A stretch of DNA of 64,000 nt from Chrysomallon squamiferum (GCA_012295275.1 CM022670.1:22320001-22384000), one strand, 5' to 3'; shown: positions 1,394 to 61,886, counted from the stretch's first letter. Notes: a model not told the origin generated them from the letters alone. Numbers and translations: made by a program.

Positions 1394-2457
<1,064 letters not shown>

Positions 2458-9310: not shown

Positions 9311-10457
9311 ATTTAAAGCATTTTACTTTATTCATACACATTTTTGAATTATGTCTATTTTTGAAAATTGGTATAATTAAATTATTATATTTATTTCTAT
9401 GTAGAATGCATTATATAACAGACTTTAGTTAAATCCATAATGTAACCATTTCTACATAATTAATTCTATTCCTGCTATTCTTTTCCATTAGAATTGTTTG
9501 CAGAATGGTTGGTTATATTATATATTGTTATATTGATGTGTGATGTTAGAACATTCAGAGAAATTTTGTTGATCATTAGACTTATAATCAGTGATTAGTT
9601 TAATAATTATAACTAGGTTGCATGTTTTTAGTAGTTAAATATCATTAAATTTATTGTTGTATTGTGCATTAATTCATATTCTTAGTTTGGTAGATATTAG
9701 GTATAGTATTTAAAATGTAATGACCTGAAATGAATAGTTTTAAAATATAGGAATAGTGTAAAATTTCAAGAATCATGGTTCCATTAAATCATAAATTGTC
9801 AAAAAATTATAATACTTCTTGTAAAGTATGTAAACAAAACAAGTTGTTACTTCTAAATAGAAAAAACAAATTATTAATTATTACAATAAATCAAGCTTAC
9901 CACTGATAAGTATGTATTTGCATTTAAGTGGAGATAATAGAGCATTCATTTTCAGTTAGAAAATTATTAATCTATTGGCAGTTTAGATCAAATGAATAGG
10001 AGCTTCAACAGATTAATAATTTTCTTCAAACAAGTTGGGTGCTTGACCATTGCATTTTTGAATTAAAAAAAAATATTGGTCATTTTAAAAGATTTCTTCA
10101 GAGATTTTGTATTAACATCTTTTATTTATCTTTACACATTTTATGATCTAGAAATTTGCAAAAGAGGTATGTGGTGACTGAACATGTTATGCGATTTCAC
10201 AGATTTGGAAAAGTATGTATAAAAAATCCAATGGAGCCCAACAATAGGAGTAACCAATTCATTAAACAACATATATAATAATTGTTTATAATGATGTGGA
10301 GTCAAACAAATACACATTAAATTTCCTGGTTTTTTTGCATTATATCCAGAATTTGTTCATATACAACACATTTATTATTCATAAATAACAAAGATCTGTT
10401 AATGTGTAAGCGGACCTATTTATTAAATAATTTTGCATTATTATTATTATTTAGGTG

Positions 10458-11728
10458 ATGCTTATTGCAAGTAATTACAAAATGGTGTTCCTGGTTCAGA
10501 AGTTTGGCACCTTAACATATAATTGTTGGCACCTCAAGAACATCTGTAGATCAGTGTTGAATATTTGTAAAAGAGGAAAGTCTTCAGATTCTTCACAAAC
10601 TGACTTCAGGTTGTATTTAGAGCAATGTGGAGGTGGCTCTGTGGATTTGGAGAAAAATAATGAAACTGGATTAGCAGTTATTACTTTGAACAATCCTGAA
10701 AAGCGAAATGCATTAACAGGTACCCACAGATATTTGAACTATTAATATTTAAACAACTTAATTTAGTAATTAAATCTAATAAATGAAATTAATCTATTTC
10801 CTCTCATAAATAGTTTTAACAAATAAAGAAATTTTTTTTTTTTTTTTTTTTTAAATGTGAAAAAATTCAGTTTACATGATTTTTCCTTTCTTAGACATAA
10901 TAGAGTTTAAATATATTATTTATCACTGGATTATCCCCTTTTACCAATACACTTCAGTTAAATAAAAATAGACATTTAATGAATGCTGCACAGTTAATTA
11001 TTTTGTTGCTGGTGAGTAAGTATATGCAGAATGTTTGATCTTTTGAAGGTAAAATGATGGTAGAGCTGTCAGACAGAATACATGAACTAGAGGAATGGGA
11101 ACAAGGAAAGGGTTTGGTGTTGCGAGGAGCAGCAGGTACTTTCTGTTCTGGTGCTGATCTTAGTCTTGTTCAGCAACTCGATAGTGGAAATGATGGATTC
11201 AAAATGGCAACTTTTATGCAAGATGTTCTGCTTCGCTGTCATCGTCTTCCTTTGATAAGTGTAGCTCTCATTGACGGAAGAGCTCTTGGTGGAGGAGCAG
11301 AAATGTGCTTGCCATGTGATTTCAGAATAATGACTGAGACAGCGAAAATCGGTTTTGTACAAATTAAGTTAAATATTACTCCAGGATTTGGAGCAGCCAC
11401 ATTTCTAACAAAACAACTTGGTCCAACAAAAGCATTAGAAATATTAAGTATGGGACAGATAATTGATGCAATTTCTGCTAAAGAAATGGGCATTGTACAT
11501 CATGTATTATCAAACAGTGGTGATGTTCTGCAACAGACTAAAGAATGGTTGCTAAGTAGACATTGCAAATATGATGCTACCGTAATTAGATCTCTGAAAC
11601 GTACTATTACTAATAGTGAAGTCTGTGATTATGAAGAATCATTAAAATTTGAAAAACAAATTTTTAAAATGATTTGGTTTGCACCTCAACATGTTAAGGC
11701 ATTAAGCCAAAAAATTAAACATGATTAA
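10458..11728 (+). CDS. ECHDC1: Ethylmalonyl-CoA decarboxylase (crotonase superfamily), ~313 aa, exons 10458-10719 and 11049-11728
   Basis: The phase-1 join gives ...TLNNPEKRNALTG|KMMVELSDRIHELEEWEQGKGLVLRGAAGTFCSGADL...GRALGGGAEMCLPCDFRIM...PGFGAATFL. The GGGSVDL, WxxGKGLVxRG and HxxAL C-terminal segments match ECHDC1. The start ATG (10458 vs 10482) is uncertain. Confidence 0.93.
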
Positions 11729-16411: not shown

Positions 16412-16645
16412 ATGATGCCTTTCTCTTTCATATCATCTAAGGACCCAGATGCAAATATCAAAAGACTAAAGATGCAGATTAAAACACTGAAGGTTCATGC
16501 ATCTATGAAAAGAATGAAATTATCACAAACACTTCCAGAGTTAATTGAGTATTGTGAAAACCATAAACAACATGATCCTCTTGTTGTACGTGACAAAAGT
16601 ATAAAAAATCCTTTTGTTGACCCAGTTAGATGTACAATAATATAA
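16412..16645 (+). CDS. G-protein gamma subunit, copy A1 (Ggamma30A/GNG13-like class), 77 aa, single coding exon
   Basis: GGL domain: LKMQIKTLKVHASMKRMKLSQTL...YCE...DPLV...NPF, with CaaX CTII*. Strong acceptor at 16390. Confidence 0.93.
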   Translation: MMPFSFISSKDPDANIKRLKMQIKTLKVHASMKRMKLSQTLPELIEYCENHKQHDPLVVRDKSIKNPFVDPVRCTII

Positions 16646-19963: not shown

Positions 19964-21935
19964 ATAATCAGAGTATATATATATTCGAAATATTCACATA
20001 CCTTAATCCATTATAACTAATGACAAAAATTCATGATGTAGATTAAGGAACCCATATAATTTTGTTTTTGTTTTAAATGTTATGAACAGATAGCGTTTAA
20101 TTTAACATTATAAGTTATATTTATTTTATTTCTTTTAATGAATTTAATAAATATATTATCTTGAGGTGATGTGTTATTATTTATTTTATTATTACTGGTA
20201 TTCTTGAAGTTTTGTGTGATTTCTCTCCCCACCCCCATTTTTCTTGTTCCTCCTGAAGCTTTATTTAATTTTATTCGTGTTTATTCTTACGCCTGTTAGT
20301 GTAAAATTGAGGAATGCCGAGTTAGTGAAATTGCATTCTCTAGTATTTGCGGTACACGGAGAACAGTCGCAGTCAATGAAAATGTAGTAACAAAACAGTT
20401 TGTCAGTAAATTGATTAAATTAATTAACAGAACTATAAAATCCGTTGTATTATATTTAGAAAGTACAGTGTTGCATTCAAAATTAAAATAACACAGAAAC
20501 GTTGACTTCTGTTTATTGCCCACCACAGAAGTGTACTTATGAAGTTGTTATGTTGGTTATGTCAAATGTCCATGTTTTTTGTAATGTAAAAGTAGTTACC
20601 ACTGTAGTATTTCCATCTTTGTACTGAAGGATGATATATAAATTCGAATTTTTCTTAAGTCAGTTTTGCATTTTAATTTTTAGGATAATAAGTGAATCCG
20701 ACTTCGATTTCCATTGTTGAGCATTCAATTTAAGAGGAAGTTGTTTTGTAGAAGACAGCATCCACCAATCAACATCCGCTTGCTTTGTATCACAGTGCGA
20801 GGTTGGAAAATTTTGCATAGATAAGGCGATTCGGTATGATTTATTGAATTTCATTTTATAAAATAACTTAGCCATGCTTAGCTTACTAAAGGAAAAACAT
20901 ATATAACGATAAATTAAACGTGTACAAATAATCAGAGTATGTTTGATCTAGGGCCGTATACTTGTTCACGTCACAAAATAACCATTCTTAGATTCTTATC
21001 ATTCTACGATTCGCCCATTCACGGCTATCGGCGCTTTTAAAATGTTATAAGGAATTGTATAATTAATATTAGAAAATTGTAGTTTTAAGTAATAAAATAC
21101 TGTGAAGGTATTTGCCATTCTCATTTTTTCATTTCTGAATGTTCTCTGTGAATTTTTAAATTATTATTTGGTTTGTTCCAAATTCACCCATTAATTATGA
21201 TAATTAGTGACAAATCCACAATGTGTCATAGTGGGTCAGTAGAACTTTACATTTTAAAAATTGCCGACTGATAAAGTGGTGAATTTACTATCCATTCGTT
21301 ACTTATTAACTTACATTTTCAATAACATTTAAAGATAATCTGTAGCTCTTCTGTAGAAAATTTCAGGTTTTTATTAAGAGTAATTGGTAAAGTATAAAAA
21401 ATACAATTTGAGAAAATTTACTACCTGTTTTTTTCATAATTATTAACTATGTCGTACTTATGTAGTTTAGTCCATTTTAGTAGATATTTCATAAAATATT
21501 TTGCTACAATTGTTTTGTTTAATGCTGATATAAAAAAAGTCATATAAAACTAAAAAAAGGCTTCTTTTACTTACCAAACTTGTCAATTCAACCATATTTT
21601 CCAAAAATTGATGCAGGCATGGTATTGCCATGATTAAGGTACTTACAAAACATTTCCTTGCAACTAGCCTACTTTTCTGAAAATAGATGAGTGCCACTAC
21701 TGGACTTATTTCGGTTACAGGGAATGTTTTTGGATATACATTGATCATGGCATAGTAAAATATTGAGCAAAATATTTGATAAACAGACCTAAATAGACAT
21801 TTCTTATTTTATTAATAAATAATAAGGTAGGAAAATGATTTTATACATTTGTATTCAAACAAACACACTCATAAACATGTTTTAATTTATCATATTTAAT
21901 TTTTTTTTATCTTTTTCCTATTTCAGACATTCAGT

Positions 21936-24900
21936 ATGGGTAAGTATTTTAAATAATTAATAATTTTTTTTTTTTTCCAACCCTTTTAATTTAGTATAAA
22001 TAATTTATATTTTGAAGATTATTTAAAATGGTAATACTGGCTTTACTACATAGTTGAACTTAAATGATATCGTTAAAGATAACGTTTGTTATATTTGTTA
22101 GAGAAATAGTTCACAGTGGCTAATAATTTATAATAAAAATTCACATGATTACTGACATAATGTAGAGCCATTAGGAATTGATTTTCCATATATTTATCAA
22201 AACAGCTGTAATAGTAAATGACAGGAAAAAATTAACACGTGAAATTTCCTTCACAATGAGTTTTTCAGATTTCATTACTCTTAAGTTGTAGAGTTATTTA
22301 ATTTTAATTTTAATTTTTTTTAAATATATATTTGCTTTTTGTTTTTGTATTTAAATTCAGAACTGACATTGGTTTGAGAATATTTAGTAATTACACTTAA
22401 ATATTTAAGAATTGTTTTAAATGTTTTTTTAAAAATAATTTTTATTTGACATGTACTGAGTAATTAAGTCATCAATTTAATATTTAATTGTTACACTAGT
22501 TATTTGGTGTAAAGATAATATGTAGATTATTTTTTTGTATTTGCACTGATGTGTTTGTGAAATTAAATACTCAGTCAGCATACTCAGATATTTTTATTAT
22601 TTTAATAATTTCTGATATTGAAATTTGAATACTTTAAAAAATCTAAACTTGATTTGGTCAAGCACAAATAATATTTTGTATCAACAGTTATGTACAAATG
22701 TACTGATAATTGAAGTTGTTATTTTAATACCACTGATATCCATGTTTGATCTTCATTGCAATTACATTCACTCCCTAATAAGTTTCATATGTGCAATATG
22801 AGCATATGATGTTGAATATTCTTACACCTGAAAACATTTGTTTATATTATTAGTATTATTAATTTATTATGTAATAGTTATTTTGTTCGATATTTATCAA
22901 GCTTATCTAATAATAGCTGTACTGTGTCAAAATTAATTAATTGCATGTTTATTAAAGTGTATCTGTGGTGATATGAAAAAATTGTCTAAATATATTCTGG
23001 CTACTTCCAAATTAAATTTTATTTGATCCTGCCATTCAGTGCTAGGTGCTGCTATTATAACAAAGAGGATGGACACATTTTCTCTTAAGTTTATTTTCCT
23101 TTGGTGTAAGACAAAATACAGTTACCACTGTACCAGTCTCCCATGTGTGATGTCTTGGCTCCAGTTGTGAAGGAGTTAAACAGCAGCATTAACATTTGTG
23201 TAACAGTATTTTGTTATTGCCATACTTACATCAATAAAGTAATAACATGCAACAATAAACATTATTATCTTATTAGGCAGTTTATTCCTACTGCCACATA
23301 TACACTTTAACATCTAGTGATTGACACAGATATGCTTAGTGACCAATTTTTTTTTAGTATGAATACAGCCAACAGGTCGAAATTTTCAGTTATTGCAGCA
23401 GTACATGATTAAATTTTTGTTTTGTTTCATATCATACCAGAATGTCAGTATGATTTGACAGTGAATATATTTGTTGTACATCATCATGGTAATCTTGATG
23501 CAATCGTTAGCTTGTTTAGAAATCTGTGACAAAAGCATTGTAACTTATAAAGCATGTCTTCTCTGTTAATATTTTGTACTAACCATTAATAATCATTTTG
23601 ATGAGCTTGAAATTTATCTTTTCATATAGGAACACAAGGGAATGCTGGTGAGAGATGGATGTCTATTAAGTAGAATTACACTAGTTCTTTATTAAGTGTA
23701 TAGACCCATTCAGTGCTGGATTGTTTATTTACAGTTTCTTACTTGGCATTAGATAATTTTTAAATTATTTTATTTAATTTTATATTTAATGATACCAGAT
23801 CATTATATTTTAAATGATTCATCAAAATTGGTATCTGAATAGTAAAAAAACAAAAAACAAATAGCAACAAAAAAAACAACAACAATCATATATATCTATA
23901 TATTAATGCTACATCTATTAAAACTGTTTTTATTTTTATTTTTTTAAACAAATCATTTAATTTGAACATAATTTCACAAAGTATGGTATAAGTCATCGCT
24001 GGATGTAATTTATTCTTTTTCATTTAGTATATTTTTTTTCAATCCTTTTTCCATATTTTTTTCCAAATATTTCAGAGGAAAAGAACCAGTACTGAATGGG
24101 TGTCTCTATATTAACTTTAGACTAATATTTCTTTGTGTTTCACTTATAGTTAGAAATCTTTTTTCTGCATAAATATATGAAATGTTGCAGTTGGCACTGT
24201 TTTTTTAACATTTGTGCACAAATTTTAGTAAAGAATAAAACAAAAAAAATTAAATGAAAATTTAATGAAAAGATAAAATAATCAGATTTGTTCAGACTTA
24301 AAATTTAAATAAATCTGCTTTCAGTATCTTTATATATCCATAATTTATTGTTTTTGAAATTCATTAACCAGACGTACGAATGCATCCAAGAGTGCCATGT
24401 TTCACATTGTTTTAAAATTCATTTTTCATTTGTTACTAAACTTCATTATACAAGGCCTCATCAGTATTTATTGCCATAAGTAGTACATGAACACACACTC
24501 ATACACACACCCACAGAAACAAAAAAAACAAACCCAATAACATGATTTTCCATTCCAACAAAATTTGTTCTTTCATTTTAAAATGTGGTGTTTTTAATTT
24601 CCTTGTATCTGGTGTTTGGTGAAATATATGTGTTATCTGTCTTGTATATATATATATACAGTAATACTTTCTTACTTGTATTTTCACTGATCTTCCAATA
24701 CAATTTTTATTCTTATTTCACAATACTTTTTTTTTTTTTTTTTTTCCATAATAGTACTTAGAATTTATAATAATGTTGGGTTAATTTTTTTATATTCAGT
24801 TAGTATCACAAAGGTAAATGTGACCACATATGTATATTTTCAGTTTTTTATTTGGTCTTGATTACTAACAAATATCTATTTATGGAAAAAGAAAAAATTA

Positions 24901-26440
24901 TAAATATTTTTCTTATACGAATTTCTGAATTCTAAACTCATTTTGCAGAAATAAGTAAATTTGGTGTCAGTTTATTTTTGAAAATACCAAGATTAGCATA
25001 TTTATTTTTTTAACATTGTTTTTGTTTCACTTGTCAAAATTTTACATAAATTGAAAAAGCATTTCTACAAATTTAAACTCTAAAACAGTAAAACATGTTC
25101 TCTTGTGGATTTTTGTGACAGCTTTGTTTACTTCTAGATATATCTAGTTTGCAGTTCAGCAGTTTAGAGTATGAGCATGGCTTTGCTATTTATTTAAAAA
25201 AAAAAATTTTAATGTTTTCAAATTGTTTTTGTTTTTTTGAATTAAATTTGACCTATTTTACCTCATCTTTGGTTTAGAAATTTGAACATACATTTTCATT
25301 TATCTTAGTTATTCTCTTTTAATTAATAACTGTTTTGCTTTATTTGTTGATAATCTGTTCTTAAGTCTGGCATTTAATTTATGTTTAATAGCTGTATTTC
25401 TTACTTGTGCATGCATGTCTTAACATTTTCTTTATTACATACTTATAGACTGGAGACTTTAAATGTGTGTCAGTTCACAGAGGAATTCTTGGAATTTTGG
25501 ATAAACAGGACCATCATGAAAACTTGTTTAATTTATTGTTAAAATTATTGTCTAAGTAATAATTATGCTTAAACCAACTTTAAAAACTATAACACTTTGC
25601 CAAAAAACAAAAAAAAAAATATATATATAAAAAAAAATAAATAAATAAATAAATATTAATAATACTTTAAGAAGTTAAAACATCTTGTTCTTAACTACAA
25701 GTACACCACCAAAATCAAATAAATTGTCATTGCACATAAGACTGTTGCACAACTCTCAAGATCTCTGTATCTAATGTTCTGCAAGAAACAAGTCCAGAGT
25801 TTTATAATAACATTTTGGACATTAAAGAATACCAGTGACAGTTTGCTTTTATGCCACTATTAGAATTAATGTATTAAGTTAAGAAATATATAAATGGAGG
25901 AGTTCACTAGTTTAAAAGATAACTGAAAGCACACTAGATACACCATTATAGTGGATGACCAGTGCAATTTTAACACTTGCTCAAGTTGTTATCGTGATTA
26001 CAAGAGTTTCTGGAAAATTAGTGGTGTAGTGCCTGCTTGTTTTTCTTTCCTGCAAAAATATTAATTAAATAATCTATTGCACTTTACTTTTCTTTTAACT
26101 CACTTTGTTTTTGTGATCTATTTCTTTCTGATGCAGAATTTTTTGGTGACAAAATATGAGCAAAACTGAATGATTTAAAAAAATCTGTGATTAAAACTAT
26201 TTTTCTTTCTCTGCAGCTGACATGCGCATGAACAAATTGCAGGAAGGTCTTCAGCAGCAGAGGCGACTGATTGAGCAGCTTCGTTGCGAGGCTCAGATCA
26301 CTCGGATGAGAGTGTCACAAGTCATTGAGGATATAGTCAAATACTGTGAAACCCACAGAGAGGAGGATGTACTTATAATTGGGTTTAACAAGCCCCAGGA
26401 GAATCCTTTCAAGGAGAAGGGTGGATGCACAATATTATAA
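21936..26440 (+). CDS. G-protein gamma subunit, copy B1 (Ggamma1-like): ATG-G at 21936-21939, optional microexon 23630-23647, main exon 26217-26440; 75 or 81 aa
   Basis: LQQQRRLIEQLRCEA...EEDVLIIGF...NPFKEKGGCTIL* resembles insect Ggamma1. tttcag|ACATTCAGTATGG|gtaagt joins in frame to ctgcag|CTGACATG, giving MADMR. The main exon is certain; the upstream exons are inferred from splice signals and paralog conservation. Confidence 0.92.
23630..23647 (+). other. 18-nt phase-1 microexon GAACACAAGGGAATGCTG of G-gamma B1
   Basis: cttttcatatag|...|gtgaga, TACTAAC at 23577-23583, length divisible by 3, no stop codon, identical in paralog B2. Confidence 0.8.
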
Positions 26441-29044
26441 ACATGTTTCGTTTTTCTTTTCAGTTTGTGACTAATTACTTATTTATTTCAAGCTTTCACA
26501 TTCAACCGAAAAATCTCAATTTGAAAAGATTAATACAGCATTATAAAGTAAATTATTGAGTTAGGACATTCACTCTGTTGCATTTTGGAGTATTGTTTCT
26601 GAAGGACAAGATTTAATATATTACCTTTATCAAGAATTCTCATTTTTATATCTTTTTCATTCATATTCTCAATTTAAAAATGCATAGTCTAAATAAACAA
26701 GAGATTGTTTTTCAGAAATTCAGAGAGAAATAATTTTTGTAGTGTCATGTAAACAATATTTTAATTGTGTGTTTTTATATACATATTGTGTTGCTTTGGT
26801 ATTGTTAAATATTTTGTGTTTCCGTCTATTAGACTATAAAGACAAATACACAGTTTGTTCCAGGAAAAGAAATTGAAAAACAAAATTCTCTTTAGGACAG
26901 ATTTATATGTATCTATATATAGGTTTTCTATTAATTTTACACTGTCAGACTCCTGTAATAATGAAATATACAGTACATGGCAAGCTTTCAACAAAACAGA
27001 AAAGGAAAAAAGAAGAAGGGAATCAAATTTTAAATAAAAAAAATGTTTTCTTAATAATTAAATGTATATATAGATGACATCACATTCATACAAAGAAAAA
27101 AGTTCATAATTCATAGTTTGTCCTGAGACAGGAAATGATCTGATTTTTATGATTTTATATTATTGATATTAAGAGTAACTAATTGTATGATGTAACAAAG
27201 TTGGTAACAAAATCATAGCATTATTATAAAATTGTACTAACACTGAAAAAAAGATGAGGAAAGCTTCTGGTCATACTCAAGTCTTGTTGGAAATAAAATT
27301 TTGTAAATCTCTCGCTGTTATCATATTTGCACATGAATATGTTAGGACTATTCTAAATTTGCTTTCAGCATTTCAAAATGAATTTATATAAATTTAAAAT
27401 GCTGGAAGCTTAAGGAATTTGACAGTAATTTATTTGTGAAAATTCAGTTTACATTTGTTTTGGTGGACTTTTTAAGTTTAGTTTTGTAAACAAAGAATCA
27501 AATTTAACATTCCTATGACTTTTACAAACATAAAATTTCTATAAAATAAAAAGTAACTAACTATTTTTGCTACATTTAAATATTTTTTAGAAAACTACAA
27601 ATATTTTAGCTTTTCTTATAAGACACTGTTACAACTTGTACCCAAACAGGTGTTATGTGTATTTGAAGTGCGTTCATTTTTTAAGACTTAAAAAATTCTG
27701 ATCATTTGTAATGCTAATTCTTTTTTTTTTTTTTTTTTGTCTCTCTTGACAAGATATTTCACTTCCTTACAAAGCATTTTTAATTTTTAATTTTTTTTTT
27801 TTTGGCCTTCCTTTCATTATGTGCATTAATACTCGATGATTTGACTGCAGTGAATCAAGTGTTCAGAGTATTTAATTTTTACTGACTAGTTTAATATTTA
27901 CAATGGCTTTAATGTGTCTATATATGTATATTCTTTCTTTAATAAAACATTTTATGTATGGATATTAGCTTTTGTCAGATATATAATAGCCATTTAATTT
28001 ATGGATATCCTGTTTTCATGTTCATATTGGTGTAACATGTATGTCATTGAAAATAAATAATGTGAACTGTGATTGTTTTATTTTATATGAATCTCTTAAA
28101 CAGATTTATTACAACTGGACTGCCTGTTCATTATAATAATCTCTTAAATCTTGATTAAAAAAACATTTATCTTCATAAATATTACAGCTGAAGAAATTTA
28201 AAAAAAATAGTTTGAATGATTAAATGCATCTTTAATGACATATTTATTTTAAAAAATTAATTCTAATTCAGACAAACAAATGAAAAAGCCCTGAAAAACA
28301 AAATATTAGAAACATTACCAAAGTCCACATTCAATGTCTGCTCACCCTTTTTTCATGCATAGATAAATGAAAAGTGTATGCAGGTTAGAAGTGGAACCAT
28401 TACTATCCTCTGGATCAAAACATCAACCCTTATTTCTTTGACTGGGTTACATTTTAAAATGACATCAATTTTCATGTTTTCACTGTTATACCATCAAAAT
28501 ACAAAAAGTACTCGTTTGAAAAAATATCTGGTCAAAGGTTCCTAACCAAAAGGTCCTTGGCCAAAACATCCTATATTCCTGTACATAAATATAATAAATT
28601 TAGCAACAACTAAAGGTACAGATCCATTCATAATTTCTTGTGTTTATTAAAACAGTCTTTACATAACAAAAAGTATTGTGTATACTGTTTGGATATGATT
28701 TATAATTAAACTTGTACCTTCATTTGCTTAAACAACAGGTGCGAAAATGTACTTGCTGGATAGTAGTAATCTCAAGGGGAGTATACAGATCATGAGCACA
28801 AATGACAGCAAAGACACAGAATAGGGTAGTTTTTTTCATGCAGCTTTGTTTCAGAGGCTTATTATTAATTACATTGGTTATTTACATAATACAAATGCAT
28901 GAAATTAAATTTAGCGTTTTGTCTACATTTATAATAAGGGGTTGGGGTTTTATCCTAGCACCTATACCGTATACGTCTGTCGGAATTACTGGGTGGTGTG
29001 ACGTGTTTGACAAACGAAAGTGGAGTTATATAATTCTGTTTTTA

Positions 29045-32387: not shown

Positions 32388-32621
32388 ATGCCATACCCTT
32401 TCACCTCTGCAAGGGATTCTGATGCAAATGCGAAAAAGCTAAAGATGCAGATTCAAACTCTTAGGGTTCATGCATCGATGAAAAGAGAGAATTTATCAAG
32501 AACTCTTCAGGAAATGATTGAATATTGTGAGTCCCACAAGCAACATGACCCTTTGGTCACACGAGACAAAAATTTTGAAAACCCATATAAAGACACCAAA
32601 TTTAAATGTACTATATTATAA
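32388..32621 (+). CDS. G-protein gamma subunit, copy A2 (Ggamma30A/GNG13-like class), 77 aa
   Basis: MPYPFTSARDSDANAKKLKMQIQTLRVHASMKRENLSRTL...DPLV...NPY...CTIL*. About 50/77 residues are identical to A1 by hand alignment. The acceptor at 32363 makes 32388 the likely start. Confidence 0.93.
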   Translation: MPYPFTSARDSDANAKKLKMQIQTLRVHASMKRENLSRTLQEMIEYCESHKQHDPLVTRDKNFENPYKDTKFKCTIL

Positions 32622-38600: not shown

Positions 38601-40801
38601 CTCTCCCCAATGTTGGTGAAATAGCTATTTTATTAGTAAAAGCTGGTAATTGGAAACAAAATAAATTCCAAGCATGAAAGATACATTATAAATTCCATTT
38701 TTTCATGTAATATTAGGTTAAAAAAAAGAAAAAAGAAAGAAACATTGTAAAACCTAAAAATTAATAATGAATACCATAAATGTTTTTCTCCAGTGGATCA
38801 TGGGTAATTCCCAATTTTCCATGCCTCAACTATAAAGCTAACTTCATCATCATACTAATTCTGTATCTATCCCACAATGATGGTGAATAATTTGAATTAA
38901 AATAAAATGAGCACATGAGAGGACTGTGTTTTATTTTGCTGTTACAGCTGTAAAGGTACATGTACATCATAAAAAAAAAGAAAAAAAAGAATGTATTTAT
39001 TAAAGTTTATGGTACACCTTAAAGGTGAAGAGGAACTACTTAAATAACTTCTAATGAATGTGACTTATAAAAAAAAAATACATTGTTTTTAATAAGCTAT
39101 TCAGATGAACTGATAATGTATTTCAAAGTGGTAAAATCATAATTATATGTTTGGAAAGTTCCCTATTTTTGCAAAGTATGTTAATTTTATTTCAGATGGA
39201 TGATGACAAATGTGAAATAATTATTTAATTTAAATGAAGCTGTAATGTTTAATGCTAACAATAGATCAAATTATTTTCCTCAGATTTAGATTAATAAATA
39301 ATTAAGTGGTATGTTATGCCTTACATGCTGTGTACTCCTTACTCACAGTAAATGTCAGTGAATAATAATATCTCCAGAGTGTAATAACTAAGTGATTTTC
39401 AAGCTTTTACGTTATTATTTCAGTTAATTAAATCCTTTTAATTTTTCAGTTTTTAGTTTTGATGATATGAACAGAACACACACACACACACATATCATCA
39501 AGGATTAATTTTATTAAGAAAGTTGTAAAACTGCATCCTGAAGCAGACAGTCTGAAAAGGTCTTGTTAAGAATTTAAAAAAAAAAAAAAATGCAAATATT
39601 TCCAATAACTGCAACAGCAGTAATTCTGACAGTATAAAAACTATGGATGGTCTATTCTGAGAATGTGCACTATTAAACACAAAAACAACTTCATTTCATC
39701 CTGATTTCTAAATTTTAAAAAAATAAGACAATAAAAGTACCCAAAGATTCCTTGACTGCCAATAAAAAAATAGAACAGAATTAGTAAGAATTAATTTATT
39801 ATCCAGATTTAATGCTCCATGTTATCAGAAATTATTTTCAAGATTAACTTTTTGGAATCTCAGTTTTTTAAATGAATGTTTTATTATTATTCTGCTGCAG
39901 GTCGAGTTGATTTGGAAGGAACTTTTCAGGTTCTCAAGTGACCTCTTTGTTTTTGTTTTTAAAAACAACACATAACAATGTAAGTATTGAGTTCTAAAAT
40001 ATGTTGATTATGCATTAATATGGTCCCAACTAGAAGTTATATTTCTATTAACATATTTAAAAATATATATATATTAAAAAAATAATAATAATAAAAATAA
40101 ACAAATTAATCATAAACAAAAAAAAAAAAAAAAAAATATATATATATAATACAAAAAAAAAAAAAAAAAAAAAAAAATTAAATAAATAATAATATAAGAA
40201 AACCATAACTGAAATAACAAAAATGAATTAATGAGGGAGATAAATGATACTCCAGAATGTGGATAGCTTCAGAAGATTATTATGACAAAATAATGTAAAC
40301 TTAAATAAAAACATATCTGTTCAGTTCTTACTTATCTTAAATACTACTTTATGCTTTAAATAACACATTATTTCAACATAATTAATATTATAAAATTATT
40401 TTATTTTATTTATATATTCAAAAAATAGTAATAATAAATAAATAAATAAATAAATAAAAAAAAAACAATTAATTTGAAATAAATTTTCCCTCTGTTTATT
40501 TTAACAGAACATTTAAGCTGTATTATTATTTTAAAACTATATAATTTTTTATTTTAACAAGCTTTCCCTTCTCTTTGTTTTAACAAAACATTTAAGCTGT
40601 ATTATTATTTTTAAAATATTTAATTTTTTTTAATGTAATTTTACACCTATTAATAATATTTATTTATCCTTTTTTTTTATGCAATTTTTTTATTTTAACA
40701 TAATTTCACACCTATTAAAAATAGTTATTTATCTTTTTATCTTTTCTTTTTTGCTATATTTGTTTCACATGTGACATTTAATTTTTACAGATTTCAGCAA
40801 A

Positions 40802-43800
40802 ATGGGTGAGTTTTATAAAAAGTGTAATTTTGTTTTTCTTGTTACTTCCTAGCATAGTCCATCCTGTGTATGTTTTTCACTTCATTATATTAACAACAAC
40901 TGCACTAAATTTTTGAACAAATTACTGCTAATTGTACTACTAACAAACTCGAAAGCAACAGTAATAACAACAACAATGAAATAAATAAATAAGGTCTGAA
41001 AACATGTTTGATTATAATATTAGTGTACAGTTATCTCCATAAATTATGTTAATATGACTTTTTTTACCATGGTTTTAAGCTGGATGACCTTTTTCTAAAT
41101 AATAAATTTTAATTAATTTTAATAGAATTTCTGTATTGTAATATAATGTTATTAAAATCAAAATGAATTAGATTGTGTGTAATATATTATGATGAAATAA
41201 AATATGATATCATTTCAAGATCAGTCTGTGAGCCAGACTCACTATAGCTTGTTGAAAAAATAAACATTAAAATTATTTGTTTTCCATTAACAGTATACAT
41301 AACTGTGAAATAAATATTAAGCTTTAAAATGTATTTTGAACTGGATAGTGACAGGCATTTTGCTTTTAGTTATGTGAAAACATCATAGCTATGATAAAAA
41401 AATTAAAAAAAAAAAAAAAAAAAAATTATAAATAATGATAATAATAATAATATTACTACTACTACTACTACTACTACTAACAACACATAACCAATAAATA
41501 CTTAAAATAGGAATTTAAAAAAAAAAAAATCCTTTTGTCATTGCAACAGTTAACAGATGTTCAAGTAATGGCCAGTTGTATATAAATGATTTTTAAAAAC
41601 CTGTATTTTATGCATGCTGGAATGTAATTAATTATGTTCAACATCATGGTAATCTTGATGCAGTCGTCAGCTTGAATAGAAGTCGGTGACAAGCATTGTG
41701 CTCTATTTGTTACAAATACAACATCTGTGTTCAAACCATTAAACTGGGCATGAACACTTTAAATATTAACTGAATAACAATTCAATTTTTAACTTCAGAA
41801 GCATGTTTTCTCTGTAAATATTTTGTACTAACCATTAATAACCATTTTGATGAGCTTGAAATTTATCTTTTCATATAGGAACACAAGGGAATGCTGGTGA
41901 GAGATGGATGTCTATTAAGTAGAATTACACTAGTTCTTTATTAAGTGTATATACCCATTCAGTGCTGGATTGTTTTCAAACTGCCTATCTTGTTGCAGTA
42001 AATAGTAGTGAAAAGTCATGAAAAATCTCGAACATTTATTATTTTGTAAAATAAAATATAATAAAATTTTAAAATCTGTAGCCCTCTGCCCCAGAATGAT
42101 CCCTCAAATTAAAAACAAAGAGAGAAATTCAGTAATATGAACAAAATAGGCCTGTTGGTATATTTCTGGGTTTCAAAAAAAAAAAAAAAAATTAAAACAA
42201 CATTTAAGTAAAAATAAAAATTCATAATTAACTGGTCCCTGTAGTTGTAGTTTTTTTGAAATTTTCTTCATTTTGAATTTGCTGAAACAAAATTTACCTA
42301 TTTCTTTCTTCTAATTTTTAAAATTTTAAAATTATAATTTAAATTACATCTATGAATGTATATTTTGAAGTAACTTTCATGCCTTACATCTTTTTTGTTT
42401 CAAATTTATCTGTTTGTCTCTCTATCTTTCTGTCTATCTACCGATCTAATTGTCTGTCTTTCTGTCTATCTGTCCATATTGAAAATTGTATGACTTTAAA
42501 AAATAAAAAATGTTGGTTATGAAAAATATCTGGCATAGATTAACCAGCACTGAATGGGTGTCTCTATATTAATTTTAGACTAATATTTCTTTGTGTCTCA
42601 CATATAGTTAGAAATCTTCTTTCTGCATAGATATATGAATTGTTACACCTTTTTAAGCAAACAAAACTGTGCACATGACTTGACTTGGACAAAATGTCTT
42701 TTTTATACCGTTTAAATCACAACCTCTAAAGTGTGTAATAACTTTTTAACTGCTTAATAAATAGCAAAAAAGAAAACTTTTTATGTTTATCATGTCAGAC
42801 TAGTTAAATATTTTTAAAGAATAAAAAGAAAACTTACCAGTGTTATTTCAAGCAATTATTTCAATGCAATACGAATGCATCAAAGAATGCCATGATTACA
42901 CACTTATAAAAAAATTTATTTTTCATTCTTCATTGAATATCAGTATGTAATGACTTAAAGAAAGATTCTTTAGTATTCCCAAACAGTTCAAAATTAGTAA
43001 AATTGCATTTAACATTTTTAATTTATATTTTTATTTTTATTTTTTTTTTAAATTTTAGTTTAAACTTTCCATTCTGTTCCTTTCATTTTGCTTTCATGTT
43101 AAAATCAGGATAATCATGAAAAATACACATTTAAAATTTATGGAACAGGTTCATTAAATTTATGTATGTTGTCATACATTGTGTGTGTGTCATGAAATAA
43201 TAATATTTCTAAGTCCACAACACATTCATATTATAGGGGTAATTACAGAATACTGATAAATGAGGAGAAACAGCAGCAATATTTTGCATTTTAACAAGCA
43301 GCATAAAGCAGTTTTGGGTTAACTGGTTTCACAGAGCTTTGTATGATAATTTCAATTTGTTTGGTATTATGTTGTATGAATTCTTGTGGACCTAATTTAT
43401 TGATATTGACATGTATGAGCATGGCTTTGTTACTTAACACTCACAGTTCTGCTTTCTTTCTTTTCTCTATTTTATGTCTTTAATATGTCTCTGATGAGTT
43501 GTGTAAATAATATATTGTGTGTGTGTGTGTGTGTACATATGTATCTGTGTGTATATATATGTATGTATGTGTGTGTGTGCACATTATTGACCTTTATTAT
43601 CACCAGCAGCATGACAAAAAACATCTCTTCTTCACAACAGTTGACAAACATCTTGATTTGTCTTACTCTATTTAATAATTATAAACATTTGAAACATCAC
43701 ATTTCACTCTAGTCCCTTTTTTCTGAAAAACACTAAATTATTAAGCATCTTGTTTCAAAAACACACCAAGGAAAGCACAAATTCACCAAAATTAGAGAAA

Positions 43801-44146
43801 TGTAGTATACAGTTATTGCTCGAGCATCTGTACATTCAACCTCATCTATAGCTACTGAAAGAAATTACCAGATTCCTTTTTTTTTTTTTTTTTTTTTTTT
43901 TTCTTTTTTTTTTTTTTTTCAGCTGACATGCGCATGAACAAATTGCAGGAAGGTCTTCAACAGCAGAGACGACTGATTGAGCAGCTTCGTTGCGAGGCTC
44001 AGATCACTCGGATGAGAGTGTCACAAGTCATTGAGGATATAGTCAAATACTGTGACACCCATAGAGAGGAGGATGTACTTATAACTGGCTTTAACAAGCC
44101 CCAGGAGAATCCTTTCAAGGAGAAGGGTGGATGCACAATATTATAA
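40802..44146 (+). CDS. G-protein gamma subunit, copy B2 (Ggamma1-like): ATG-G at 40802-40805, optional microexon 41879-41896, main exon 43923-44146
   Basis: The main exon differs from B1 at 2 residues. tacag|ATTTCAGCAAAATGG|gtgagt joins in frame to the poly-T acceptor cag|CTGACATG. A candidate UTR exon lies at 39901-39979. Confidence 0.92.
41879..41896 (+). other. 18-nt phase-1 microexon of G-gamma B2
   Basis: Same sequence and splice sites as 23630-23647; TACTAAC at 41826-41832. Confidence 0.8.
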
Positions 44147-44447
44147 GTTTCAGCATTTGTTGTTAGCTTAGAGTCATCTGCAGAAGACTTTTGACTGACT
44201 ATTTATTTCTGTGTACAATGCTTTTTCACATGAATAAAATTTTAAGAAAAAGTGTATTATCATAAAATATTTCATTTTGGAAACCTGACTGAAAATATTT
44301 ATTTGTTTTATTAGTTACATTTCTGAATGAGAATTAAAAACAACATTGCTCCAAGTGAACGAATTTAGGCAGTGATTCTCAAACGTGAATTTTTTTTTAT
44401 AACTGGCATCTGATGACGACAACAAATAAATAAATAAAAAGATAAAG

Positions 44448-44478
<31 letters not shown>

Positions 44479-46360
44479 TTAAAAAAATTTCAATCAAATG
44501 TAATTGAAGTAATTTAAGATTTGTTTAATGTGTTTCATCTTAGAATCTCTTCATATACTAAGAACTAAAATGTGTTGTATAAAAGCATTTATGAACATTG
44601 TAATACTTAACTTTTATCTTTTTCTTTATAAATCACTTATTTTATGTACATGTAAACAATTTCCCATTTAAAAGTAAAGCTTGTTTAAAAATAACTACCA
44701 TATTGAAGTTACATAAAAAAAGAAAGATTTCATATTTGACAATTTTAACAATATCATGCACATGTTACATAAATAAAATTTGAAAATATGGAAATGTTAA
44801 CAACAGATGTTTGTTTCAATGAAGGCTATTTCAACATGTAACAACCAAATCAAATATTAATGTCAAACAATTTATGTGAATGAACAATTAATGGCATACC
44901 AGTATAAAGAAAATTTCAGCTTTTTGAATGTCATACAATTATTTCATTTTATCATTTATATCGTGTAATAAAAACTTCAGTTTTCAAGTTAAAAAAATAT
45001 TCGGTTTTTTTAAATATATTTTAATTTTATATGAAAAAAATGTCATGCCTTTGGTATCTAAAAAAATAATTTTAAAAACCCAGTATTTTATGGGAAGATC
45101 ATTTTTTGTTCATTGATCTGTAGCTGTTTTATTTATTATTATTAGACTTTTTGTGATATACACGGGTGAACTGAAATTTAACAGGTAGCAAGTTTTGAGA
45201 CAAATTCATTTTATTTGTACAAATCAGCAGTGGTTTTTATTGTCTGATTTTTTGTACTTACATCATTTTCATCTAATACACCATTAATAATCTTTCCTTT
45301 GAATACTACATGTTCACTTTTTAGATTAATTTTATGTAGTATAAATGTGTAGTTTAATTAAAATAATCTGAATGTGAATGTTGTTTTGTTTCCTTATATC
45401 CACACAACATAATGGCCCTCTAATGGAGAATGATCATATATCACACTAAAGCTTAACAATTACTACAATATATCTTTATTATTTCTACGAAGCTAGTTTG
45501 AGTGTAAATTGTTGTTGTTGCCTGAAGAAACTCTCAATAAAGAATAGTTTTAAAATGGAAAAATGAAGATGATTTTGGAGATGGACAAGTGTTAATGATC
45601 AAAAGAGCAAAGCACATATATCACAAACAGTTCTTTGAACATTTTAAAATTGTTATTGTTATTGTTATTATGATTTTTTTGTTATTATTATTTTTATTTA
45701 TTTGTGATATACATAATTCATTAATCTTCTAATCTAAATATTTTTATATTAAACCCACATAACCAACTGCTGTGCATTTATTTCTGTTGCAGAGTTGTTA
45801 TAAATATGATTTAGAACCACGATTTATTCAGTTTCACGAAGATAAAAAAATAAATATATATATTGCATTGAATAAAAAATCCAATAGAACAAAGGCATAC
45901 ATTTTCAGAAATAATGCACTAGAAACAAATGTTATCATTATCATAAACCATGAATTCAAGACTGTAACCTTTAACTGAACCAGGTATCAGTATGTATCTG
46001 TTATTTAAATTCATAGTGGCAAATTCAGGTGGTGATAACTGATAAGTGTTTAAATACATAATAGCTAAGCTATATGAAAAAAGTGTCAGACTGACCTAAA
46101 CACAGTGCAGAAAAATGTTACTAAAGTTATTCATAGTACTTAATTAAAATGCATTGATTATTTGGTGTCATTGGCTATTAAATATCAAATATATGGTATT
46201 CTGACACTTCTAAATTGGAAAAAAATTGATTTTTCTTTTTTTTTGTTTTTTTTTGCTACAGAAATAAACACATTTAATGGAGTTTTTGATAAGGTATCAC
46301 AGGATGCTGGGTGAAACTCAAATAGTAGATACCACTTCTTGAATAGTTTCTAATAATGTG

Positions 46361-47090
46361 CATTAAACCATACTGTCAAATATACTGAGCCTAAGTGTGT
46401 GTGTGTGTTCATTAAACCATACTGTCAAATATACCGAGCCTAAGTGTGTGTGTGTGTTCATTAAACCATACTGTCAAATATACTGAGCCTAAGTGTGTGT
46501 GTGTGTTCATTAAACCATACTGTCAAATATACGGAGCCTAAGTGTGTGTGTGTGTTCATTAAACCATACTGTCAAATATACGGAGCCTAAGTGTGTGTGT
46601 GTGTGTGTTCATTAAACCATACTGTCAAATATTAAACCATACTGTCAAATATAGCCCTAAGTGTGTGTGTGTGTTCATTAAACCATACTGTCAAATATAT
46701 TGAGCCTAAGTGTGTGTGTGTACATTAAACCATACTGTCAAATATATTGAGTGTTCATTAAACCATACTGTGTGTGTGTGTGTGTACATTAAACCATACT
46801 GTCAAATATATTGAGCCTAAGTGTGTGTGTGTGTGTTCATTAAACCATACTGTCAAATATATTGAGCCTAAGTGTGTGTGTGTACATTAAACCATACTGT
46901 CAAATATATTGAGCCTAAGTGTGTGTGTGTGTGTACATTAAACCATACTGTCAAATATATTGAGCCTAAGTGTGTGTGTATGTATGTACATTAAACCATA
47001 CTGTCAAATGTACTGAGCCTAAGTGTGTGTGCTTGCATATACATTAAACCATACCTTCAATTGTACTGAGCCTAAGTCTGTGTGTGTGTT
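46361..47090. repeat. Minisatellite, ~15-16 units of ~47-53 bp: CATTAAACCATACTGTCAAATATA(C/T)TGAGCCTAAG + (TG)n
   Basis: Directly visible tandem units with a constant core and a variable TG tract; a few truncated units lie in the middle. Confidence 0.97.
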
Positions 47091-48975: not shown

Positions 48976-49647
48976 CTATCCAATAACCTTGGGTGCACCG
49001 GCAGCGTACCTTCGTCCTGAAATTGATAGGTAAAGAGTCAGACGAACAGAAATACAGACTTACAAACATCCTAATGTCCAGATATATAGGAAAAACGTCT
49101 GAACGGAAAATAAAGTCAATTTACAAAAAAAAAAACAGATATATGGATAGGCAGGCTGACGGACTACTGGCAAATCGAATAAATAGTATTTGTTTAGATA
49201 ATCTGAAAGGACTGATGAATAAAGAGAGACAAGAACAAAGATAGAGAAATTTATATATGGATATGAAGGTAAATAAAGAGAAAGAATAAAAGACTGAGGC
49301 AGACAGAAATAGATAGATTAAATTTAAAGCAGATTAACGCAAACTATGTTAATTAATAAAATAGACTCACCGTAATCGAAGAAGTCATCAGACATAGCCA
49401 TAAGTCCAAGTCCGGCCATTCCTCCCATGCCCATCATACCCATACCCATTCCGTAACCCATGCCCATACCATAACCCATTCCTCCGTAGCCGTAACCTCC
49501 GTAACCGTAACCTCCGTAACCTCCGTACATGCAACCTCCGAACATGCAAGGTCTGCGCATCATAGGCATCATAGGAGGCATCATGAGAGTTTGAGAGATC
49601 TGGACCATTGTGACAAGAAGTGTGAGGGCGAAGACTAATTTGAGCAT
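48976..49647 (-). CDS. Secreted Gly/Met/Tyr-rich protein, paralog 1, 105 aa, coding exons 49647-49371 and 49016-48976
   Basis: Signal peptide MLKLVFALTLLVTMVQISQT, GGY/GM repeats, then G|gtgagt to tttcag|GA giving ...SDDFFDYGRRYAAGAPKVIG*. A UTR exon ends at 49970 and a TATA box lies at about 50040-50045. The structure is mirrored in paralog 2. Confidence 0.9.
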
Positions 49648-50029
49648 GATGATGTCTGTGAAGAATAGTATAAAAAAAAAAAATAATAATAAAACAGATG
49701 AATCAATGTATGAAGACTCATGGTATATTAATATTAAAAGTTTAATATAATCGAAGTTTATCAAGGGCTACTTTTGTTTTGACAAATGGCCGTGTTATTG
49801 CAGTTTTCTATATATCGTCAGAATCCATACTTCATTATTCCAAATTAAGATTATTAAATTTTATCAGATAAGAATAAACGCAAAATAATAATAATAATAA
49901 GAAGAAGAAGAACAACAACAACAACAACAAACCTCTACATTCTAAATTAAAATAAACATAAAAGCGTACCTTTCTTTGTTGTTTTGGAGTTACTAAGAAG
50001 CTGTGAGTTGGTTTGATTTGGAACTGTTT

Positions 50030-53655: not shown

Positions 53656-54337
53656 CTATCCAACAATTTTGGGTGCACCGCTGGCTAGTCTTCTTCCTGA
53701 AATTGATAAAATATATAGGTAAATAGACGAAGAGACACACAAAGGCACGGACATGCTAAGAGATCACTAGAGAGAAAGACTGAAAAAAAAAAAAAAAAAG
53801 AAAAGTTTACAGATGGATGTAGGTAGAACGACAGATTGGCAAATTAAATAAATTGTATTTGATTTGATAATCAAAAAAAAAAAAGGGTTGATGATTAAAA
53901 AGAGAGACAAGAAAAAAGATAGAGAAATTTATATATAAATACGAAGGATTAGAAAGAGAAAGAGTAAGAATCTGAGGTAGAAACAGAGAGATTAAATTCA
54001 AAAGCAGATTAACGCAAACTATGTTAATTAATAAAATAGACTCACCGTAATCGAATAAGTCATCAGACATCGCCAAAAGTCCAAGTCCGGCCATTCCTCC
54101 CATGCCCATCATACCCATGCCCATTCCGTAACCCCCCATGCCCATGCCCATGCCCATTCTTCCGTAGCCGTAACCTCCGTAACCTCCGTATCCTCCAAAT
54201 CCTCCGTATCCTCCGTACATGCAACGTCCGTACATACAAGGTCTGCGCATCATCGGCATCATTGGCATTCCGTAGCCAGCTTGCGAGATCTGGACCATTG
54301 TGACTAGAAGTGCGAGGGCGAAGACTAGTTTGAGCAT
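53656..54337 (-). CDS. Secreted Gly/Met/Tyr-rich protein, paralog 2, 110 aa, coding exons 54337-54046 and 53696-53656
   Basis: Signal peptide MLKLVFALALLVTMVQISQA and GGY/GM repeats. The spliced C-terminus is ...SDDLFDYGRRLASGAPKIVG*. A UTR exon ends at 54760 (CAA|gtaagt). Confidence 0.9.
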
Positions 54338-54490
54338 GATGATGTCTGTGAAGAATAACAAGACAATAAATAACGTGGCAAAACTTTTAATGCGACCTAT
54401 GCTGCTTTGCAGTCAGAGATTACTCTTGGAATTAATAGTCAGTAAATTCGATCTATTTTGTTAATCTGAAATAAAACAAATTTCTCTTTT

Positions 54491-56749: not shown

Positions 56750-61886
<5,137 letters not shown>

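What the first reader, a model, noticed from the sequence alone, without database searches (positions are those of the whole stretch)
21927..26440. Hidden 18-nt microexon that could switch a G-protein gamma subunit from Ala2 to a myristoylatable Gly2 (dual-lipid G-gamma)
Seen: the start codon sits in a 13-nt micro-exon ending ATG-G, so the next exon sets residue 2. Skipping 23630-23647 gives ATG G|CT = MADMR. Including it gives ATG G|GA ACA CAA GGG AAT GCT G|CT = MGTQGNAADMR. The microexon, its splice sites and a TACTAAC are identical in paralog B2 (41879-41896), although most of the intron is unalignable. Established: G-T-Q-G-N-A fits the PROSITE N-myristoylation pattern G-{EDRKHPFYW}-x2-[STAGCN]-{P}; Met-Ala N-termini are usually NatA-acetylated; CTIL is a geranylgeranylation CaaX; canonical G-gammas are lipidated at the C-terminus, not N-myristoylated. 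Inference: splicing may toggle a second membrane anchor on G-beta-gamma. Asn at position 6 is weaker than Ser and the pattern is permissive. I know of no description of this but cannot search.
Basis: partly seen in the sequence, partly recalled or inferred. Interest (0 to 1): 0.9.

Follow-up and report, generated by a model that had tools for sequence, protein, structure and literature searches.

The report
RNA-masked microexon in snail G-gamma
A snail G-protein gamma gene, present here in two copies, has an 18-base optional exon that changes the protein's front end; conserved intron segments are predicted to fold over this exon and likely control its use, while the proposed second lipid anchor is unlikely.

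Summary
An 18-nt AG/GT exon (23630-23647; paralog 41879-41896) turns MADMR into MGTQGNAADMR. RefSeq proteins of the snail Gigantopelta aegis hold exactly these two N-termini (X1 81 aa, X2 75 aa), so the cassette is very likely real, though I got no junction reads.

The myristoylation switch is weak. Asn6 occurs in 1 of 58 sites of a mouse myristoylome (with Lys7, absent here). About 15% of Gly-start peptides pass the PROSITE pattern. Only 1 of 204 subfamily proteins starts Met-Gly, although octopus and clams also have alternative N-termini.

New: the four intron islands shared by the paralogs pair with one another. One helix loops out the exon, one lies downstream (best duplex of each intron); both beat 1000 of 1000 shuffles in both copies. 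A third, weaker arm is antisense to the microexon itself (2 and 40 of 1000). The likely mechanism is a structure-gated, default-skipped microexon that lengthens the G-gamma N-terminal tail. No compensatory double change was seen with only two copies. Verdict: new variant of a known kind, interest 0.42.

The parts
21927..21939 (+). Copy A: 13-nt exon carrying the start codon (ATG 21936-21938) plus one G; phase-1 donor
   Evidence: A at -3, G at +4
23484..23516 (+). Copy A: 5' arm of outer helix H1 (loops out the microexon)
   Evidence: pair probability 0.92/0.77; 0 of 1000 shuffles
23577..23583 (+). Copy A: TACTAAC, branch-point-like, branch A about 48 nt before the exon
   Evidence: role inferred
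23630..23647 (+). Copy A: 18-nt cassette microexon; inclusion gives MGTQGNAADMR; also 5' arm of helix H2
23698..23720 (+). Copy A: 5' arm of inner helix H3
   Evidence: best of 703 windows, -32.6 kcal/mol; P 0.98
24085..24112 (+). Copy A: 3' arm of inner helix H3
24115..24141 (+). Copy A: element antisense to the microexon and its 5' splice site (3' arm of H2); holds ACTAAT at 24121
   Evidence: P 0.88; rank 1 of 416 windows; 2 of 1000 shuffles
24366..24399 (+). Copy A: 3' arm of outer helix H1
26217..26443 (+). Copy A: last coding exon, GGL domain, ends CTIL-stop
   Evidence: PF00631, E 3e-19
40793..40805 (+). Copy B: start-codon exon (ATG 40802-40804 plus G); 5' boundary uncertain
41643..41676 (+). 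Copy B: 5' arm of H1
   Evidence: P 0.90/0.81; 0 of 1000
41879..41896 (+). Copy B: identical 18-nt microexon
41951..41968 (+). Copy B: 5' arm of H3
   Evidence: best of 509 windows, -34.2; P 0.99
42544..42597 (+). Copy B: 3' arm of H3 (42544-42561) followed by the element antisense to the microexon (42566-42597)
   Evidence: P 0.99, 0.82; rank 1 of 300; 40 of 1000 shuffles
42860..42896 (+). Copy B: 3' arm of H1
43923..44149 (+). Copy B: last coding exon, GGL domain, ends CTIL-stop
   Evidence: PF00631, E 9e-20

Best explanation
This is an 18-nt frame-preserving exon in two tandem snail G-gamma-1 genes that is likely alternatively spliced, and conserved intron segments are predicted to fold into three nested long-range helices that would loop it out and mask it, so that it is likely skipped by default. 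Shown: exon anatomy, the two protein products, the four conserved islands and their complementarity. Predicted: H1 loops out the exon; H2 pairs the exon with an element 470-670 nt downstream; H3 lies next to it. Inferred: inclusion happens when the exon is recognised before the antisense element is transcribed, or when an RNA-binding protein opens H2 (an ACUAAU motif, STAR/QKI-type by recall, sits in its 3' arm). Inferred: the product adds six residues to the G-gamma N-terminal tail ahead of the GGL domain and swaps an Ala for a Gly N-terminus, tuning tail-dependent signalling or stability, most likely without efficient myristoylation. The C-terminal CTIL prenyl signal is common to both forms.
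For: Both N-termini in RefSeq G. aegis: XP_041357292.1/294.1 (81 aa) and XP_041357295.1 (75 aa). H3 is the best duplex of each intron (1 of 703 windows in A, 1 of 509 in B) and H1 ranks third in both. H1 and H3 beat all 1000 dinucleotide shuffles in both copies. All three helices form in whole-region ensembles of both copies, P 0.77-0.99. The microexon's best partner in each intron is the same conserved element (rank 1 of 416 and 1 of 300). A/B differences: 6 of 145 paired against 27 of 243 other positions, Fisher p 0.023 (exon and splice core left out). Opening exon plus donor costs 14.9 against 9.5 kcal/mol (A) and 14.5 against 11.0 (B) once the element is present. Spacers between islands differ in length between copies. 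Looped-out human exons are less included (PMC8052449, section 10 read). Octopus, Ruditapes and Dreissena RefSeq isoforms also vary at this N-terminus. G-gamma N-tails affect signalling in yeast (PMC10393545, abstract).
Against: No junction read or contig was obtained, so skipping by default is not measured; RefSeq lists two accessions for the inclusion form and one for the skip form. Only two copies were compared: no double-sided compensatory change, and one change (24139) breaks an H2 pair in B (partners read by hand). H2 is rich in G-U pairs and marginal in B (40 of 1000 shuffles; runner-up window only 0.2 kcal/mol weaker). In the model the donor is not less accessible with the element (unpaired 0.29 against 0.20 in A; 0.31 against 0.24 in B), and H2 forms without H3. 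Pairing of the 3' splice site was not significant (270 and 398 of 1000). The last exons are 95.5% identical with 1 of 24 four-fold sites changed, so gene conversion may inflate the identity of the islands. AlphaFold draws residues 4-10 as low-confidence helix rather than coil.
Confidence: 0.5

Rival explanations
1. One reading: inclusion makes an NMT substrate, giving a G-gamma with myristate and geranylgeranyl.
For: Gly2 only on inclusion, PROSITE-type pattern met, strong start context. Thr3 with non-Ser6 occurs in 2 of 58 mouse sites and Asn6 in 1 of 58. A splice form without the consensus can be myristoylated: HK1S (PMC4736023, passages). The peptide is identical in both copies and in G. 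aegis.
Against: No Ser/Thr6 (Ser in 37 of 58), no Lys7 (PMC7048800 passages on aa7); no site with Thr3 plus Asn6 among the 58. About 15% of Gly-start peptides pass the pattern. Gly2 in 1 of 204 subfamily proteins and 1 of 278 complete-looking G-gammas of up to 90 aa (many are automatic gene calls that would miss microexons). The similar octopus stretch GAQPTAAEFK has its Gly at position 4.
Confidence: 0.2
2. The helices are real but activate: H3 is an RNA bridge that brings the ACUAAU element next to the exon, and H2 does not form in cells.
For: H3 is the strongest and best-kept helix; ACTAA[CT] lies at 24121 and 42579 just past its 3' arm; bridges with RBFOX2 and QKI sites are described (PMC8052449 passages); H2 is marginal in B.
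Against: The same segment is the best partner of the exon in both introns; H1 encloses the exon, a geometry linked to skipping.
Confidence: 0.17
3. Translation starts mostly at the ancestral MNK ATG, so the microexon is 5'-UTR variation or makes only a minor form.
For: 120 of 202 subfamily proteins start at the MNK/MSK core; six likely gastropod transcript contigs (L001-L006) have in-frame stops and no ATG upstream.
Against: Here the exon-1 ATG has A-3/G+4 in both copies, the MNK ATG has C-3; the exon keeps frame without stops; Haliotis keeps MADMR, and clams and octopus keep acidic-x-basic residues before MNK.
Confidence: 0.08
4. The conserved islands are gene-conversion tracts and their complementarity is incidental.
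For: Coding exons are unexpectedly alike for copies with unalignable introns.
Against: Four separate islands with spacers of unequal length coincide with the arms of the top duplexes; changes are fewer at paired positions.
Confidence: 0.05

Closest known systems
Gigantopelta aegis G-gamma-1-like isoforms X1/X2 (XP_041357292.1, XP_041357295.1)
   Same: Same two N-termini; 99% identical core.
   Different: The window has two tandem copies, each one residue from the RefSeq protein. I saw protein records only, not exon coordinates or read support.
Pairs of conserved complementary regions: exon loop-outs and RNA bridges (PMC8052449; section 10 and passages read), ATE1 R1-R5 (PMC7797038; abstract)
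   Same: Conserved intronic arms that pair over hundreds of bases around a regulated exon.
   Different: Here the target is an 18-nt exon in a mollusc and one arm is antisense to the exon itself; the catalogue cited excludes exonic sequence and is human. No functional test here.
Isoform-specific N-myristoylation, e.g. sperm HK1S (PMC4736023, passages)
   Same: An alternative N-terminus that begins with Gly and lacks Ser6.
   Different: HK1S replaces an N-terminal domain through its own promoter, has Gln3 and a conserved MG; here a cassette behind a shared ATG supplies Gly2, position 3 is Thr, and Gly2 is not shared by other molluscs seen.
Dual-lipid G-gammas of plants (AGG2; PMC3508898 passages) and yeast Ste18 (recalled)
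   Same: G-gamma with a prenyl signal and a proposed second lipid.
   Different: Their second lipid is S-acylation beside the CaaX, at the C-terminus and not under splicing control.
G-gamma N-terminal tails as regulators (PMC10393545, abstract)
   Same: The microexon alters the region ahead of the GGL domain (domain starts at residue 11 of the last-exon peptide).
   Different: Regulation described there is by tail structure in yeast, not by a microexon.

Membership tests
G-protein gamma subunit | GGL domain (PF00631) | tested here: met
   E 3e-19 and 9e-20, above the curated cut-off; matches solved G-gamma-2 chains
G-protein gamma subunit | C-terminal CaaX | tested here: met
   CTIL-stop in both copies; Leu = geranylgeranyl is established knowledge
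G-protein gamma subunit | Dimer with G-beta | not tested
Cassette microexon | Very short, AG/GT-flanked, frame-preserving | tested here: met
   18 nt
Cassette microexon | Both included and skipped forms exist | tested here: inconclusive
   both proteins annotated in G. aegis; no junction seen in this organism's RNA contigs
SRRM3/4-type neural microexon | UGC close upstream of the 3' splice site (recalled) | tested here: not met
   no TGC in the 20 nt before the exon in either copy
N-myristoylated proteins | Gly2 after Met removal | tested here: met
   inclusion form only
N-myristoylated proteins | Ser/Thr6, or Asn/Gln3 or Lys7 when it is absent | tested here: not met
   Thr3, Asn6, Ala7; compared with 58 mouse sites and PMC7048800 passages
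N-myristoylated proteins | Gly2 conserved in orthologues | tested here: inconclusive
   kept in G. aegis only; 1 of 204 subfamily proteins, but most records cannot show microexon forms
N-myristoylated proteins | Myristate incorporation | not testable with these tools
   needs a bench assay
Conserved long-range complementary regions | Conserved intronic arms with strong complementarity | tested here: met
Conserved long-range complementary regions | Compensatory substitutions | tested here: inconclusive
   two sequences only; two one-sided changes keep a pair, one breaks a pair, none double-sided
Conserved long-range complementary regions | Effect on splicing | not testable with these tools
   needs minigenes or antisense oligonucleotides

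The most novel reading that the evidence does not exclude
An RNA 'lid' antisense to an 18-nt exon, held in nested long-range helices, gates a splice switch that gives G-gamma a myristoylated N-terminus besides its C-terminal geranylgeranyl: a G-beta-gamma anchored at both ends, made on demand. The switch may be old in molluscs (octopus GAQPTAAEFK aligns with GTQGNAADMR).
Probability: 0.13. Interest if true: 0.8.

Novelty: new variant of a known kind. Interest (0 to 1): 0.42.

Why it matters
It gives a compact, testable case of a microexon enclosed and apparently covered by conserved long-range RNA helices in a mollusc, outside the fly and human genes where such control is mostly described, and without the usual neural-microexon motif. 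It also shows that molluscan G-gamma-1 varies its N-terminal tail by splicing. If the Gly form proved myristoylated, it would be a G-gamma lipidated at both ends, which my searches did not find in print.

Tried and rejected
No whole genome is held, so no further paralogues or orthologous introns could be read. Junction evidence: the lay over the whole gene gave no result; the lay on the last exon covered it in 1 of 4 runs (X3, 3 contigs; X1, X2, X5 none). The contigs start at 26247, so no 5' junction is shown; both the A-type and the B-type sequence behind the stop codon appear, which shows both copies in one sample but not transcription. The repeat finder was swamped by A/T runs. Rfam: 0 matches at E 0.1 in 21900-26500. 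Branch-point and 3'-splice-site masking, first guessed, was not supported. Four clam genomic loci (L007, L008, L009, L052; 1.0-2.7 kb upstream) held no candidate microexon or ATGG/GT exon; they are probably too short. The 52 metagenome loci included no close relative of the window. AlphaFold monomer: pTM 0.42, residues 1-10 pLDDT 62, little information. PMC8689648 part 2 said nothing on peptide positions. Literature searches that found no description of this exon or of a myristoylated G-gamma: (listings only; most subscription papers are not searched). No earlier findings. Assembly artefact rejected: the neighbouring G-gamma pair is only 72% identical.

Full report
1. Observation. The three exons and both reading outcomes are as described, in both copies. 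Skipping gives MADMRMNK...CTIL, inclusion MGTQGNAADMRMNK...CTIL. A scan of each intron for stop-free AG-(3n)-GTRAG exons of 3-30 nt gave 2 candidates in A and 3 in B; the 18-nt exon and its nested 9-nt form are the only ones in both. The last exons are GGL domains. The closest protein is from the vent snail Gigantopelta aegis, 99% identical; the window is likely a related snail (inferred; no genome held).

2. Is the exon used? RefSeq holds G. aegis isoform X1 (81 aa, XP_041357292.1 and 294.1) and X2 (75 aa, XP_041357295.1), which differ by exactly GTQGNA. That such models usually rest on RNA-seq is recalled; I saw neither exon coordinates nor reads. My own RNA test did not reach the junction: 1 of 4 runs covered the last exon, from 26247 on. 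The exon-1 ATG has A-3/G+4 in both copies while the ancestral MNK ATG has C-3, so initiation upstream is likely.

3. Relatives. Of 202 subfamily proteins held, 120 start at MNK/MSK. Alternative N-termini before the same core are annotated in Octopus bimaculoides (MTSGAQPTAAEFK, MKQIEEFK), Ruditapes (MNEMEAAKEAR, MSMEAR) and Dreissena (MDANAKEAR, MSMEAR); unnamed records give MEFK and MEAR. Clam genomic loci place an acceptor 8 nt before the MNK ATG, in the same phase. So N-terminal variation is widespread in molluscs, and the octopus stretch aligns with the snail one, but its exon structure is unknown. Met-Gly occurs in 1 of 204 subfamily proteins and 1 of 278 complete-looking G-gammas of up to 90 aa, in each case the G. 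aegis X1 itself. Many records are automatic gene calls and would miss microexon forms.

4. Myristoylation. In the mouse table of PMC10696250 (supplement mmc3, all 58 rows, counted by hand) position 6 is Ser in 37 and Asn in 1 (with Lys7). Of 21 non-Ser sites, 15 have Asn or Gln at position 3 and 2 have Thr (both Ala6). In the first of four parts of the HeLa table one more Asn6 site appears, with Asn3 and Lys7. PMC7048800 (passages) gives Lys7 a role in binding. The snail peptide has Thr3, Asn6, Ala7, Ala8. Gly2 needs only ATG-G plus a G as first exon base (inference). For the other side: HK1S is myristoylated although predictors said no (PMC4736023, passages). I put efficient myristoylation at about 0.2.

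5. The copies share four colinear intron islands of 67, 189, 106 and 58 nt with spacers of unequal length. They pair with one another. H3 (23698-23720 with 24085-24112; 41946-41969 with 42543-42569) is the best duplex among 703 and 509 windows; H1 (about 23484-23511 with 24372-24400) ranks third in both and encloses the exon. Neither is reached by any of 1000 shuffles in either copy. H2 pairs the microexon and donor with 24115-24141 (B 42566-42597): 2 and 40 of 1000 shuffles, rank 1 of 416 and 1 of 300 windows. In whole-region ensembles all three form with P 0.77-0.99; the 981-nt region has z -2.5 (0 of 20 shuffles). Differences between copies: 6 of 145 paired and 27 of 243 other positions, p 0.023, exon and splice core left out. 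Two changes keep a pair on one side, one breaks an H2 pair, none is double-sided.

6. Mechanism. With the downstream element present, the exon's unpaired probability falls from 0.30 to 0.06 (A) and 0.35 to 0.14 (B), and opening exon plus donor costs 5.4 and 3.5 kcal/mol more. Against a simple picture: the donor is no less accessible, H2 does not need H3, and 3'-splice-site pairing is not significant. Most likely the exon is skipped once the RNA folds, and included when it is recognised within the 470-670 nt before the element appears or when a protein opens H2; ACTAAT lies in that arm (STAR/QKI label recalled). These steps are inferred. Looped-out human exons are less included (PMC8052449, section 10), and elongation-dependent folding sets exon choice in ATE1 (PMC7797038, abstract). 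The protein effect is likely a longer tail ahead of the GGL domain; tails influence G-beta-gamma signalling in yeast (PMC10393545, abstract). AlphaFold adds little.

7. Caveats. Only two copies of the intron were available. Their last exons differ at 1 of 24 four-fold sites, so gene conversion may raise identity, though it would not explain why the islands coincide with helix arms. Energy models over 1 kb of A/U-rich RNA are uncertain. The direction of the effect is not measured.

8. Novelty. Both protein forms are already in a database; long-range helices around cassette exons, isoform-specific myristoylation and dual-lipid G-gammas (C-terminal S-acylation; PMC3508898, passages) are each known. 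Searches (listings and abstracts) showed no description of this exon, of a microexon covered by a distal antisense element, or of an N-myristoylated G-gamma; the library lacks most subscription papers. Rfam has no match. Verdict: new variant of a known kind; interest 0.42; boldest reading 0.13 likely, 0.8 if true.

Noticed in passing
window 23639-23647 and 41888-41896: An internal AAG acceptor could give a 9-nt form, MGNAADMR: fails the PROSITE pattern but has Asn3, the commonest position-3 residue among non-Ser6 sites. No evidence of use.
   Followed up: partly
window 23032-23043: Copy A only: a second exact 12-mer of the H3 5' arm, upstream of the exon, could compete for the same 3' arm (-24 kcal/mol, second-best duplex of the intron). 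No counterpart in B.
   Followed up: partly
window 16415-16645 and 32388-32621: A second G-gamma type (PF00631; ends CTII and CTIL), 72% identical between copies, precedes each G-gamma-1: a tandem duplication of a two-gene unit. Fused gene models in Biomphalaria, Bulinus and Elysia (P0044, P0030, P0026) suggest the same order there.
   Followed up: partly
window 26197-26440 against 43903-44146: 95.5% identity ending at the stop codon, with 1 of 24 four-fold sites changed, while introns and the neighbouring gene pair are far apart: gene conversion or strong synonymous constraint.
   Followed up: no
window 23551-23556 and 41800-41805: A GCATG (Rbfox-like by recall) is kept in both copies about 75 nt upstream of the microexon.
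   Followed up: no
window 49324-49767 (-) and 53807-54412 (-): Two paralogous Gly/Met/Tyr-rich ORFs with a signal-peptide-like start, no Pfam match; they look like secreted shell or scale matrix proteins.
   Followed up: no
window 2146-2457 (-), 10455-11728 (+), 59825-60773 (+): Neighbours: Skp1/POZ exon (Elongin C-like by recall), enoyl-CoA hydratase family gene, and glyoxalase-like exons by sight (the one piece scanned had no Pfam match).
   Followed up: partly
window 46357-47090: Tandem array of roughly 50-nt units (self-comparison).
   Followed up: no
P0174, P0057 (octopus cluster): If the stretch GAQPTAA is a cassette that can follow the exon giving MEFK, cephalopods could make a Gly2/Thr6 form, a better NMT motif. 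No such record among the 7 cluster members.
   Followed up: partly
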